Virus record (IMG/VR): IMGVR_UViG_2563366825_000011
Coordinates: 1-64,000 of that record
Source of the DNA: a virus
Taxonomy: Duplodnaviria > Heunggongvirae > Uroviricota > Caudoviricetes
Strand: one strand, 5' to 3'
DNA: 64,000 bases
Positions within the stretch are counted from its first letter, which is position 1. Every line of letters starts with the position of its first letter. Below, piece by piece: positions 33,949 to 36,420 of the stretch. The notes below the pieces were generated by a model. The model saw nothing but the letters and a program-made list of their open reading frames with translations. It was not told the origin of the DNA and did not search any database. Made by a program: the position numbers and the translations under genes.

Positions 33949-36420
33949 ATGAGTAAAGTCTTTATTTGCGCCGCTATTCCTGACGAACTGGCAACAAGGG
34001 AAGAAGGCGCTGTGGCTGTAGCCACAGCCATTGAAGCTGGCGACGAACGCCGTGCTCGAGCAAAATTTCACTGGCAGTTCCTGGAACATTATCCGGCTGC
34101 TCAGGACTGCGCTTATAAATTTATTGTCTGCGAGGATAAACCTGGCATACCCCGCCCTGCCCTCGATTCATGGGATGCTGAATATATGCAGGAAAACCGC
34201 TGGGATGAGGAGTCTGCTTCTTTTGTCCCGGTTGAGACTGAATCCGATCCGATGAACGTCACTTTTGACAAGCTGGCCCCTGAAGTACAGAACGCTGTCA
34301 TGGTTAAGTTCGACACATGTGAAAACATCACCGTTGATATGGTTATTAGCGCACAGGAATTGTTGCAGGAAGACATGGCAACATTCGACGGACATATCGT
34401 TGAAGCGTTGATGAAAATGCCAGAAGTTAACGCCATGTATCCGGAGCTTAAGTTGCACGCCATTGGGTGGGTTAAGCATAAATGTATTCCTGGTGCTAAA
34501 TGGCCCGAAATTCAGGCAGAGATGCGCATCTGGAAAAAACGTCGCGAAGGTGAACGCAAGGAAACCGGAAAATACACATCTGTTGTTGATCTCGCCCGCG
34601 CCAGAGCCAATCAACAGTACACTGAAAATTCAACAGGAAAAATCAGCCCGGTCATTGCTGCCATTCATCGCGAATACAAGCAGACATGGAAAACACTGGA
34701 TGACGAACTGGCCTACGCTCTCTGGCCTGGTGATGTGGATGCCGGAAACATTGACGGCAGCATCCATCGCTGGGCAAAAAAAGAAGTTATCGACAACGAC
34801 CGCGAAGACTGGAAGCGTATCTCGGCATCAATGCGCAAACAGCCTGATGCCCTTCGCTACGACCGCCAAACTATTTTTGGCCTTGTCCGTGAGCGTCCGA
34901 TCGACATTCACAAAGATCCCGTAGCACTGAACAAATATATCTGCGAATACCTGACGACAAAGGGCGTGTTTGAGAATGAAGAAACAGACCTGGGCACTGT
35001 TGATGTTCTCCAGTCATCAGAAACACAAACTGATGCAGTGGAAACTGAGGTATCTGATATCCCAAAAAATGAAACCGCGCCGGAAGCTGAACCATCTGTA
35101 GAGCGTGAGGGGCCGTTCTATTTCCTCTTCGCAGATAAGGACGGAGAAAAATACGGTCGCGCAAACAAACTTTCTGGTCTGGATAAGGCACTGGCTGCTG
35201 GCGCCACTGAAATCACAAAAGAAGAATATTTTGCCCGAAAAAATGGCACATACACGGGCTTACCGCAAAATGTAGATACCGCTGAAGATTCAGAACAACC
35301 AGAGCCGATAAAAGTTACCGCTGACGAAGTAAACAAAATTATGCAGGCAGCCAATATCAGCCAGCCTGACGCCGATAAGTTGCTTGCTGCATCACGTGGT
35401 GAATTTGTTGAAGGGATTAGTGACCCGAATGATCCGAAATGGGTTAAGGGGATCCAGACCCGCGATTCTGTGAACCAGAACCAGCATGAATCGGAACGGA
35501 ACTACCAAAAAGCGGAACAAAACAGTCCAAATGCGTTACAAAACGAGCCAGAAACGAAACAGCCTGAACCAGTGGCGCAACAGGAAGTGGAAAAAGCCTG
35601 CACCGCCTGCGGTCAGACCGGCGGCGGCAACTGCCCTGATTGTGGCGCGGTGATGGGCGACGCAACATACCAAGAAACATTCGATGAAGAGTATCAGGTT
35701 GAAGTTCAGGAAGATGATCCGGAGGAAATGGAAGGCGCTGAACATCCACACAAGGAGAACACTGGCGGCAATCAGCATCACAATAGCGATAATGAAACTG
35801 GCGAGACGGCAGATCACCCAATTAAGGTGAACGGTCATCACGAAATCACATCCACCAGCAGGACGTGTGACCATCTAATGATCGACCTTGAAACCATGGG
35901 AAAAAATCCTGATGCCCCGATCATCTCAATAGGTGCAATATTTTTCGATCCGCAAACCGGAGATATGGGACCGGAATTTAGTAAGACTATCGATCTGGAA
36001 ACTGCTGGCGGAGTCATTGATCGGGACACCATTAAATGGTGGCTTAAGCAATCACGCGAAGCGCAATCTGCCATTATGACCGATGAAATCCCGTTAGATG
36101 ATGCACTGTTACAATTGCGGGAATTTATCGACGAAAACTCCGGTGAATTTTTTGTTCAGGTTTGGGGAAATGGAGCCAACTTCGACAACACGATTTTGCG
36201 CCGTTCATACGAACGGCAGGGGATCCCCTGCCCGTGGCGTTACTACAACGATCGCGATGTACGCACAATCGTTGAGCTGGGGAAAGCCATAGACTTCGAT
36301 GCCAGAACGGCTATTCCATTCGAAGGTGAGCGCCATAATGCACTTGATGACGCCCGTTACCAGGCAAAATACGTTTCAGTTATCTGGCAAAAACTGATCC
36401 CGAGTCAGGCTGATTCTTAA
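33949..36420 (+). CDS. Large early-region protein with C-terminal DEDDh (DnaQ-like) 3'-5' exonuclease domain; Exo VIII/RecE-position protein, probable full-length counterpart of the K-12 ydfE fragment
   Basis: 823-aa ORF; C-terminal motifs IDLETMG (Exo I), WGNGANFD (Exo II), HNALDDARY (Exo III); acidic low-complexity central region with CTACGQ...CPDCG zinc-ribbon-like pair. Confidence 0.6.
   Translation: [823 protein letters not shown]

What the first reader, a model, noticed from the sequence alone, without database searches (positions are those of the whole stretch)
33949..36420. 823-aa early-region protein with DEDDh exonuclease C-terminus in the position of the K-12 ydfE fragment
The C-terminal ~180 residues carry clear Exo I/II/III motifs of DnaQ-like 3'-5' exonucleases (IDLETMG, HNALDDA), fused to a long acidic low-complexity region and a CxxC..CxxC element. 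It occupies the exo/recombination slot of the leftward operon (between ydfD and xis), where lambda encodes a 5'-3' exonuclease of a different fold, so this is a non-canonical recombination or anti-defence nuclease. It is intact here whereas K-12 retains only fragments.
Basis: partly seen in the sequence, partly recalled or inferred. Interest (0 to 1): 0.45.

Follow-up and report, generated by a model that had tools for sequence, protein, structure and literature searches.

The report
Prophage RecE-like scaffold carrying 3'-5' exonuclease
This is an intact copy of a very common, already catalogued lambdoid-phage early gene: a RecE-like scaffold whose usual 5'-3' nuclease head is replaced by a DnaQ-type 3'-5' exonuclease; its domains are clear, but its activity and biological role have not been tested.

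Summary
ORF 33949-36420 (+) encodes 823 aa. The C-terminus (aa 642-813) matches PF16473 (Rv2179c-like DEDDh exonuclease, E=2e-67) with an intact catalytic set D646/E648/D746/H796/D801. The closest solved fold is T4 DexA. The CxxC..CxxC element and the acidic linker are present, and K-12 keeps only the first 256 codons, cut by IS2.

The protein is a mosaic. Residues 262-627 are homologous to the non-catalytic middle and linker of Rac RecE, and homology stops where the nuclease head begins. Relatives put the same scaffold on a RecE-type PD-(D/E)XK head followed by recT, on a Rad52-like annealase head, or on a non-nuclease head.

DEDDh-headed versions sit directly before xis-int, and no annealase, SSB or anti-RecBCD gene was detected nearby.

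The gene is not new. The protein is annotated as RefSeq WP_000048324.1 in an identical strain. The region is present in 3446 of 5426 complete E. coli genomes. It is PHROG 2082 and is 99% identical to gp27 of phage Tritos, the prototype of a published nuclease-only, Chi-rich lambdoid class.

Best reading: a DNA-end 3'-5' exonuclease that assists host RecBCD/Chi recombination. Anti-defence and RNA roles are not excluded. Nothing here has been tested biochemically.

The parts
33949..36420 (+). Complete gene for the 823-aa scaffold-DEDDh exonuclease, the intact form of K-12 ydfE
   Evidence: ORF. PHROG 2082 matches residues 1-822 of its 823-position profile. An identical strain annotates the product as 'exonuclease' WP_000048324.1. 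It is 816/823 identical to phage Tritos gp27.
33935..33938 (+). Shine-Dalgarno GAGG, 10 nt upstream of the ATG
   Evidence: Read from the sequence.
33949..34623 (+). N-terminal scaffold, aa 1-225 (Pfam YdfE_N): an alpha/beta domain (aa 1-100) plus a helical domain (aa 105-225)
34681..34968 (+). Helical domain, aa 245-340 (Pfam YdfE_C), shared with RecE residues about 278-345
   Evidence: BLASTP against Rac RecE, pLDDT about 90-95, PF27432 named YdfE_C.
34978..35100 (+). Acidic disordered spacer, aa 344-384
   Evidence: pLDDT below 50; residues 351-400 have a net charge of -11.
35110..35244 (+). Small beta-hairpin/helix domain, aa 388-432 (GPFYF...GRANK...EIT.EEY.ARKNG)
   Evidence: pLDDT 83-92. 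Conserved in YdfE_N-type relatives whatever their head (alignment A1).
35374..35466 (+). Conserved linker motif, aa 476-506: [31 protein letters not shown]
   Evidence: Nearly identical in Rac RecE. Present in DEDDh-headed, PD-(D/E)XK-headed and headless relatives. Candidate partner-binding motif; this is inference.
35599..35643 (+). Cys4 element CTAC-x7-CPDC, aa 551-565 (putative zinc knuckle)
   Evidence: Conserved in Rac RecE and close relatives, absent from more distant ones. Model confidence is only 50-70.
35644..35862 (+). Acidic, His-rich disordered linker, aa 566-638. Homology to RecE ends at aa 627.
35872..36387 (+). DEDDh (DnaQ-fold) 3'-5' exonuclease head, aa 642-813. Catalytic codons: D646 (35884-35886), E648 (35890-35892), D746 (36184-36186), H796 (36334-36336), D801 (36349-36351).
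   Evidence: PF16473 E=2.4e-67, residue conservation, pLDDT 90-98, Foldseek best hit T4 DexA 8KEL at E=2e-11.
33253..33304 (+). DicF sRNA (operon context, upstream)
   Evidence: Rfam RF00039, 76.7 bits.
33479..33855 (+). dicB and ydfD, the genes immediately upstream in the same leftward operon
   Evidence: RefSeq annotation of an identical strain.
36493..38059 (+). xis (36493-36744) and tyrosine integrase (36779-38059), immediately downstream, with no annealase gene in between
   Evidence: Pfam DUF1233 excisionase and Phage_integrase; RefSeq annotation.
35852..35859 (-). A Chi site (GCTGGTGG) inside the gene, one of 7 in the prophage part of the window

Best explanation
The gene encodes a modular early (pL-operon) phage nuclease. 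The C-terminal head is a Mg2+-dependent, two-metal DEDDh 3'-5' exonuclease of the Rv2179c/T4 DexA family. A mostly disordered, acidic linker of about 200 residues, carrying a conserved [15 protein letters not shown] motif and a Cys4 knuckle, tethers it to a folded N-terminal scaffold (YdfE_N + YdfE_C). Scaffold and linker are homologous to the non-catalytic part of RecE. In relatives they carry other recombination heads, so they probably bring whichever head they carry to a common DNA-end or recombination context. In this class of phage (Tritos/mEp460/Qin type) it is the only recombination-module gene, and the genome is Chi-rich. I infer that it trims 3' single-stranded tails or ends of linear phage DNA. 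That would let the host RecBCD-Chi-RecA pathway, rather than a phage annealase, carry out the recombination needed for replication and packaging. What is shown: the domain architecture, the catalytic residues, the mosaic relationships and the gene contexts. What is inferred: DNA as the substrate, 3'-end trimming, cooperation with RecBCD, and a targeting role for the scaffold.
For: 1. PF16473 at E=2.4e-67; DEDDh residues invariant or nearly so across 57 homologues; confident model. The nearest solved fold is the phage DNA exonuclease T4 DexA (E=2e-11), ahead of RNase T (4e-8) and RNase AS/Rv2179c (5.5e-5). By sequence, DexA is the only PDB match.
2. Residues 262-627 align to RecE 278-592, and homology stops at the start of the head.
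3. The same scaffold carries a PD-(D/E)XK head followed by a RecT-family gene (P0139). It also carries a head whose stand-alone homologues are named Rad52/Rad22 family or carry PF04098.
4. Stand-alone DEDDh genes 56-58% identical to this head lie inside Sak4/Erf-SSB-Abc2 recombination modules in epsilon34 and Bas106. Eleven of 80 species-level loci show this Rec-module context: 10 with an SSB beside the gene and one with Abc2 just downstream.
5. No SSAP, SSB or anti-RecBCD gene was found near any fused DEDDh gene: this window, mEp460, 813R8, Tritos, L009, L012 and 10 further loci.
6. Chi occurs 9 times in the window against 1.9 expected, with 7 in the prophage part. Tritos, with a 99% identical protein, is the prototype of a nuclease-only, Chi-rich class in PMC12315714, Table 1. 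That paper proposes that Chi-rich lambdoid phages without recombination modules rely on RecBCD.
Against: - No biochemical or genetic data exist for this protein; literature searches found only omics mentions of ydfE.
- The Pfam family also contains a true exoribonuclease (Rv2179c/RNase AS), so RNA cannot be excluded as a substrate.
- PMC12315714 notes that DnaQ-type 3'-5' exonucleases usually inhibit homologous recombination. It treats int-proximal DnaQ genes as not clearly part of recombination modules.
- Twenty-five of 80 loci place the DEDDh gene directly before xis-int, 15 of them as a bare domain. That may reflect an accessory-gene hotspot rather than a recombination function.
- The scaffold has no informative structural relative, so its 'targeting' role is conjecture.
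- My SSAP detection used single-sequence probes and could miss divergent annealases.
Confidence: 0.5

Rival explanations
1. It is an anti-defence or host-takeover nuclease. Expressed early from pL, it would degrade host or immune nucleic acids with free 3' ends, such as host DNA fragments (as T4 DexA does), retron msDNA, or oligonucleotide or cyclic-oligonucleotide signals. The scaffold would target or regulate it.
For: The nearest solved relative, T4 DexA, is a non-essential phage DNA exonuclease. Other structural relatives include CBASS Cap18 and oligoribonucleases that degrade short nucleotides. The gene occupies the accessory, int-proximal end of the early operon in 25 of 80 loci. No annealase partner is present. 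There is a weak PADLOC hit to a CRISPR-associated DEDDh model, E=1.8e-5.
Against: No link to any defence system was found. The scaffold is shared with proteins whose heads are recombination enzymes. Close stand-alone homologues sit inside canonical recombination modules. The PADLOC hit only reflects the shared superfamily.
Confidence: 0.2
2. It is an RNA 3'-5' exonuclease. It would either trim phage or host transcripts (for example 3' ends in the dicF-dicB-xis-int operon) or act like the recently described prophage 'TONDO' DEDDh exonucleases, which block RNA phages by trimming their 3' UTRs.
For: PF16473 is named after the exoribonuclease Rv2179c, and RefSeq often names the protein '3'-5' exoribonuclease'. 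Structural neighbours include RNase T, 3'hExo, ERI and Orn. [quoted passage not shown]
Against: The TONDOs are ISG20-like, and that paper mentions neither Rv2179c-like nor RecE-like proteins. The gene lies in the repressor-controlled lytic operon, not in a lysogen-expressed moron position (that dicB operons are repressed is background knowledge). It is closer to DNA-specific DexA than to RNase AS. The scaffold is shared with DNA recombination enzymes.
Confidence: 0.15
3. It is a decaying, functionless relic of a cryptic prophage, or a fusion artefact.
For: In K-12 and in a Shigella flexneri genome the gene is disrupted. The window's prophage carries an IS insertion elsewhere.
Against: The full-length ORF with intact catalytic residues is kept in 3446 of 5426 complete E. 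coli genomes. One 90%-identity cluster holds 23,183 member sequences. Deposited phage genomes carry it too: Tritos, mEp460, HannyBb and PhiR42_1.
Confidence: 0.03

Closest known systems
Exodeoxyribonuclease VIII (RecE) of the Rac prophage
   Same: It has the same operon position, late in the leftward early operon before xis-int. The middle and linker are homologous: aa 262-627 align to RecE 278-592, and the stretch from the [13 protein letters not shown] motif through the Cys4 element and acidic linker is very similar. Both are long proteins with a dispensable or unknown N-terminal part and a C-terminal nuclease head (PMC11611040).
   Different: The head is DEDDh (3'-5') instead of PD-(D/E)XK PF12684 (5'-3'). 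The N-terminus is YdfE_N instead of PF06630. No recT follows. It scores 281 bits against a cut-off of 1269 for the RecE equivalog model.
T4 exonuclease A (DexA; PDB 8KEL/8KEN)
   Same: Best solved structural and sequence relative of the head: Foldseek E=2e-11 with target-normalised TM-score 0.65-0.72, phmmer E=1.5e-6. Same D-x-E start motif. It is a phage-encoded 3'-5' DNA exonuclease.
   Different: DexA is a 227-aa stand-alone protein of a virulent phage. Identity is only about 21-23%. It has no scaffold or linker.
Rv2179c / RNase AS of M. tuberculosis (founder of PF16473)
   Same: Same Pfam family and the same fold (6S0M, E=5.5e-5).
   Different: It is a small stand-alone bacterial exoribonuclease. 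There is no detectable PDB sequence hit at E<=1, so the relationship is more distant than to DexA.
DnaQ-type nuclease genes of lambdoid Rec modules, and the 'Tritos' nuclease-only functional type (Zheng et al. 2025, PMC12315714)
   Same: Tritos gp27 is 99% identical, in the same DicF-dicB-ydfD-exo-xis-int order. The epsilon34 'DnaQ' nuclease is 56% identical to the head. The genome background is Chi-rich.
   Different: None of substance: this window is another copy of that type. The paper does not describe the scaffold/head mosaic in detail.
TONDO prophage DEDDh exonucleases (PMC13344964)
   Same: A DEDDh exonuclease plus an auxiliary domain, with genes found in prophages and other mobile elements.
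   Different: Those are ISG20-like sequences chosen by homology to human ISG20. No relation to PF16473 or RecE is mentioned. Their role is defence against RNA phages, which was not tested here.

Membership tests
PF16473 Rv2179c-like DEDDh 3'-5' exonuclease | Pfam HMM score above the gathering threshold | tested here: met
   226.5 bits against 27; aa 642-813 cover profile positions 2-177 of 177.
PF16473 Rv2179c-like DEDDh 3'-5' exonuclease | Complete DEDDh catalytic set (Exo I D-x-E, Exo II D, Exo III H-x4-D) | tested here: met
   D646, E648, D746 and H796 are invariant and D801 is at least 90% conserved in 57 homologues.
PF16473 Rv2179c-like DEDDh 3'-5' exonuclease | DnaQ/RNase H-like fold | tested here: met
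   Model pLDDT 90-98 over the domain. There are 70 PDB matches at E<=1e-3; every match in the listed top 50 is a DEDDh-type 3'-5' exonuclease, led by DexA.
PF16473 Rv2179c-like DEDDh 3'-5' exonuclease | Mg2+-dependent 3'-5' exonuclease activity, and substrate (DNA or RNA) | not testable with these tools
   Needs an enzyme assay.
   21.4 bits against a cut-off of 24, E=4e-4. The relation is at superfamily level only.
RecE / exodeoxyribonuclease VIII (NF007259 equivalog) | Whole-protein score above the NCBIfam cut-off | tested here: not met
   281 bits against 1269; only profile positions 271-600 match.
RecE / exodeoxyribonuclease VIII | C-terminal PD-(D/E)XK 5'-3' nuclease domain (PF12684) | tested here: not met
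   Absent. Rac RecE has it at aa 615-850.
RecE / exodeoxyribonuclease VIII | PF06630 N-terminal domain | tested here: not met
   Not found; present in RecE at aa 2-178.
RecE / exodeoxyribonuclease VIII | Adjacent, translationally coupled recT annealase gene | tested here: not met
   xis follows directly. recT follows recE in Rac and follows the PD-(D/E)XK-headed relative.
RecE / exodeoxyribonuclease VIII | Homologous central region and linker | tested here: met
   BLASTP E=3e-62 over aa 262-627.
YdfE family (Pfam PF27430 YdfE_N + PF27432 YdfE_C) | Matches to both domain models | tested here: inconclusive
   These models are not in the local Pfam copy. All listed homologues at 86-94% identity carry precomputed PF27430 and PF27432 hits, with names. 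The K-12 ydfE pseudogene is 99.3% identical in DNA to the first 768 nt. So membership holds by proxy.
Tritos-type nuclease-only Rec module of Chi-rich lambdoid phages (PMC12315714) | A nuclease present, with no SAP, SSB or anti-RecBCD gene in the early left operon | tested here: met
   RefSeq annotation of the identical region, Pfam scans of the neighbours, and 99% identity to Tritos gp27 in the same gene order.
Tritos-type nuclease-only Rec module of Chi-rich lambdoid phages (PMC12315714) | Abundant Chi sites, mostly in one orientation | tested here: met
   Seven Chi sites in the roughly 38 kb of prophage in the window, 5 on the strand matching the phage-map top strand; 9 in the window against 1.9 expected. 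The prophage is cut by the window edge, so the count is partial.
TONDO RNA-phage defence exonucleases | ISG20-like sequence and protection against MS2/Qbeta | not tested
   Only the paper text was read. No sequence comparison was possible and no assay was done.

The most novel reading that the evidence does not exclude
The YdfE/RecE N-terminal scaffold plus the conserved [15 protein letters not shown] linker motif is a general docking platform. It would deliver interchangeable DNA-end heads (5'-3' exonuclease, 3'-5' exonuclease, Rad52-like annealase, or a non-nuclease head) to one host or phage target. On this reading the DEDDh version defines an annealase-independent phage recombination strategy, in which a phage 3'-5' exonuclease prepares ends for the host RecBCD-Chi pathway instead of inhibiting RecBCD.
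Probability: 0.2. Interest if true: 0.6.

Novelty: already known. Interest (0 to 1): 0.3.

Why it matters
This is one of the most widespread prophage genes in E. coli, present in about two thirds of complete genomes, yet its activity has never been measured. It is the only recombination-type gene in a large class of Chi-rich lambdoid phages, which includes prophages of pathogenic strains. Knowing whether it processes DNA ends for RecBCD, counters a defence system or acts on RNA would explain how these phages replicate and recombine without a Red/RecET system. It would also clarify what the long 'unknown' N-terminal part of RecE, a standard recombineering tool, does. A practical point: PHROG 2489 proteins labelled 'exonuclease' appear to carry a Rad52-like annealase head instead, which matters for annotation and for mining new recombineering proteins.

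Tried and rejected
- Sequence and profile searches of the PDB with the third-head domain found nothing. Direct Pfam gave only PF04098 at E=0.036. The Rad52 link rests on names and Pfam tags of stand-alone homologues.
- PADLOC gave only a weak superfamily hit.
- The NCBIfam zinc-ribbon hit at aa 528-567 (E=0.25) was rejected as noise.
- Literature: a search on 'ydfE' returned only omics lists. 'Rv2179c + phage' returned nothing relevant. Two searches were wasted on loose word matching.
- The supplement of PMC12315714 was not available, so I could not see how Tritos's nuclease was typed.
- The search for related loci with the scaffold alignment failed because no stretch was conserved enough. The DEDDh alignment was used instead.
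- I considered a role in int retroregulation or DicF 3' processing. Nothing supports it beyond gene proximity.
- I considered that the Cys4/acidic linker is a DNA mimic. I did not pursue it: the model is low-confidence there, and the Cys4 element is absent from more distant relatives.
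Full report
**Observation.** The ORF is real. It runs from 33949 to 36420 on the + strand, starts with ATG and encodes 823 aa. A GAGG ribosome-binding site lies 10 nt upstream. The two CxxC pairs are at 551-554 and 562-565. The segment after them is very acidic: residues 551-600 have a net charge of -14.

**Gene context.** The gene lies in a lambdoid prophage inserted next to rspB/rspA, in the Qin position. The order is repressor, ydfA, DicF (33253-33304, Rfam 76.7 bits), dicB, ydfD, this gene, xis, int. 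In a K-12 derivative the gene is a 768-nt pseudogene (256 codons) that ends at an IS2 fragment and is followed by a truncated int. The claim 'intact here, fragment in K-12' is therefore correct.

**The nuclease head.**
- Pfam places aa 642-813 in PF16473 (Rv2179c-like 3'-5' exoribonuclease domain) at E=2.4e-67.
- In an alignment with 56 diverse homologues at 38-53% identity, D646, E648, D746 and H796 are invariant and D801 is at least 90% conserved. This is the full DEDDh set.
- An AlphaFold model of aa 440-823 gives pLDDT 90-98 for the domain.
- The best solved match is phage T4 DexA, a DNA 3'-5' exonuclease (8KEL, E=2e-11). Next come E. coli RNase T (4e-8), 3'hExo/ERI, CBASS Cap18, oligoribonucleases, and RNase AS = Rv2179c (5.5e-5).
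- By sequence alone, DexA is the only PDB hit (E=1.5e-6).

I regard the head as a functional DEDDh 3'-5' exonuclease. The substrate is not determined. The closer relation to DexA leans towards DNA.

**The rest of the protein.**
- BLASTP against Rac RecE aligns aa 262-627 to RecE 278-592 (E=3e-62). Similarity is very high from [33 protein letters not shown] through the Cys4 element and the acidic, His-rich linker. Homology stops where the nuclease heads begin.
- RecE's own domains, PF06630 at the N-terminus and the PD-(D/E)XK domain PF12684 at the C-terminus, are both absent here. The RecE equivalog model scores 281 bits against a cut-off of 1269.
- A model of aa 1-445 is confident (mean pLDDT 83). 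It shows an alpha/beta domain (1-100), a helical domain (105-225), a second helical domain shared with RecE (245-340), a disordered acidic spacer (344-384) and a small beta-hairpin/helix domain (388-432).
- Newer Pfam releases call these parts YdfE_N (PF27430) and YdfE_C (PF27432).

**Head swapping in the family.** A search of 1.8 billion representative proteins, followed by domain mapping, shows that the scaffold occurs with several heads:
- YdfE_N or RecE_N scaffolds with the DEDDh head. P0123, for example, matches Rac RecE at 100% over aa 1-200 and 94% over aa 201-450, and has a DEDDh head 98% identical to this one.
- Scaffolds with a PD-(D/E)XK head (RecE itself, P0139, P0160).
- YdfE_N scaffolds with a third head (PHROG 2489/7838, labelled 'exonuclease').
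- Scaffolds with a non-nuclease tail (P0130).

Stand-alone homologues of the third head, about 243 aa and about 40% identical (E about 1e-58), are named 'Rad52/Rad22 family DNA repair protein' by NCBI. Two of them carry PF04098. Direct Pfam on the head itself is only suggestive (E=0.036). The same platform therefore carries a 5'-3' exonuclease, a 3'-5' exonuclease or, very probably, a single-strand annealing protein.

The linker motif ISDP.D.KW occurs across head types. The Cys4 element occurs only in the E. coli-like subset.

**Partners.**
- PD-(D/E)XK-headed genes are followed by a RecT-family gene: Rac, and P0139, whose downstream ORF matches PF03837 at 2e-36.
- DEDDh-headed genes are followed directly by xis-int, with no annealase, SSB or anti-RecBCD gene detected. 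This holds for this window, mEp460, vB_EcoS-813R8, Tritos, a Rac-like prophage carrying P0123 and P0137.
- I also scanned 80 loci from 80 species-representative genomes. All 10 fused DEDDh genes had an integrase 179-573 nt downstream and no SSAP, SSB or anti-RecBCD hit.
- Of the 69 stand-alone DEDDh genes in that scan, 15 were also directly before xis-int.
- Eleven stand-alone genes lay in a recombination-module context. Ten sat beside an SSB gene, five of them also with a Sak4- or Erf-type annealase. One had Abc2 just downstream.
- That matches phages epsilon34 and Bas106.
- My probes were single sequences, so divergent annealases could have been missed.

**What is already known.**
- An identical strain annotates the product as 'exonuclease' WP_000048324.1.
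- 3446 of 5426 complete E. coli genomes contain at least 80% of the region.
- One 90%-identity cluster has 23,183 member sequences.
- PHROG 2082 is a full-length profile for it.
- Phage Tritos gp27 is 816/823 identical, in the same gene order.
- Zheng et al. 2025 (PMC12315714) report DnaQ-like 3'-5' nucleases in lambdoid recombination modules. They note sporadic DnaQ-type genes near int. They list 'Tritos' as the prototype of four phages with a nuclease but no annealase, SSB or anti-RecBCD gene, and with many Chi sites.
- The window fits this class. Chi occurs 9 times against 1.9 expected, and 7 of those lie in the prophage part, 5 in one orientation.
- I found no experimental work on this protein. 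'ydfE' appears only in omics lists.

**Mechanism (inference).** The head removes nucleotides from free 3' ends by two-metal catalysis. The flexible acidic linker and the scaffold position it. Because the scaffold is shared with recombination enzymes, and close homologues of the head sit in recombination modules, I favour a DNA-end role. In a Chi-rich phage with no annealase and no RecBCD inhibitor, trimming 3' tails would produce ends that RecBCD can load on. That would feed the host Chi-RecA pathway which this phage class is proposed to use. Confidence is about 0.5.

**Rivals.**
- An anti-defence or host-takeover nuclease: DexA-like, in an accessory position, with Cap18 and Orn among the structural neighbours. 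About 0.2.
- An RNA exonuclease, including a TONDO-like block of RNA phages (PMC13344964). About 0.15. This is weakened by the gene's place in a repressed lytic operon and by the closer relation to DexA.
- A dead relic: effectively excluded by conservation.

**Verdict.** The functional label is plausible but untested. The element is an ordinary, catalogued member of a known phage gene family. The modest added value here is the explicit scaffold/head mosaic, the correlation between head type and annealase partner, and the likely mis-annotation of Rad52-headed relatives as exonucleases.

Noticed in passing
window 24375-25690 (-) and 52109-53424 (+): Two identical 1316-bp insertion-sequence copies, each encoding a 402-aa Mutator/IS256-family transposase (PF00872). 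One lies inside the prophage and one in the host flank. They could mediate inversion or deletion of the roughly 26 kb between them.
   Followed up: partly
window 54172-62556 (-): A 2794-aa ORF with 'large polyvalent protein' domains (LPD38, LPD5, LPD1, MuF_C), typical of conjugative elements and phages. It lies directly beside the second IS copy. As far as I recall it is not part of the K-12 gene order in this region.
   Followed up: no
window 33253-33304 (+): DicF antisense sRNA, a complete Rfam match (76.7 bits), upstream of dicB in the same operon as the exonuclease.
   Followed up: yes
window 17243, 21225, 21277, 21810, 21867, 28782, 35852 (prophage); 41753, 43154 (host): Chi sites (GCTGGTGG) occur 9 times against 1.9 expected by shuffling. 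Seven are in the prophage part, five of them on the - strand, and four cluster at 21225-21874. This fits the Chi-rich lambdoid class of PMC12315714.
   Followed up: partly
relatives P0136, P0152, P0153, P0181, P0235 (for example L010:4001-6226): PHROG 2489/7838 proteins labelled 'exonuclease' carry the YdfE scaffold fused to a domain whose stand-alone homologues are Rad52/Rad22-family annealases. In L010 the gene is followed by a Sipho_Gp157 gene and then int. This is a likely annotation error and a scaffold-annealase fusion I did not see mentioned in the papers read.
   Followed up: partly
L015 (JAGZPX010000007.1): A contig binned as a 'Veillonella parvula' MAG carries a RecE_N-DEDDh gene whose head is 100% identical to this E. 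coli protein. This is almost certainly a mis-binned Escherichia contig.
   Followed up: no
L019, L025, L032, L036, L039, L041, L051, L053, L056, L057, L075, L077, L078, L081, L086: Stand-alone DEDDh genes of about 190 aa, with no scaffold, sit 207-334 nt upstream of an integrase gene in 15 different species. This is the same 'last gene before xis-int' position as the fused form. The reason for this recurrent position is unexplained.
   Followed up: no
window 32375-32992 (+) and 32654-32974 (-): The roughly 1 kb between ydfA/ydfB and DicF has no annotated gene in the identical RefSeq strain. It contains a 205-aa ORF and an antisense 106-aa ORF, neither with a Pfam match.
   Followed up: no
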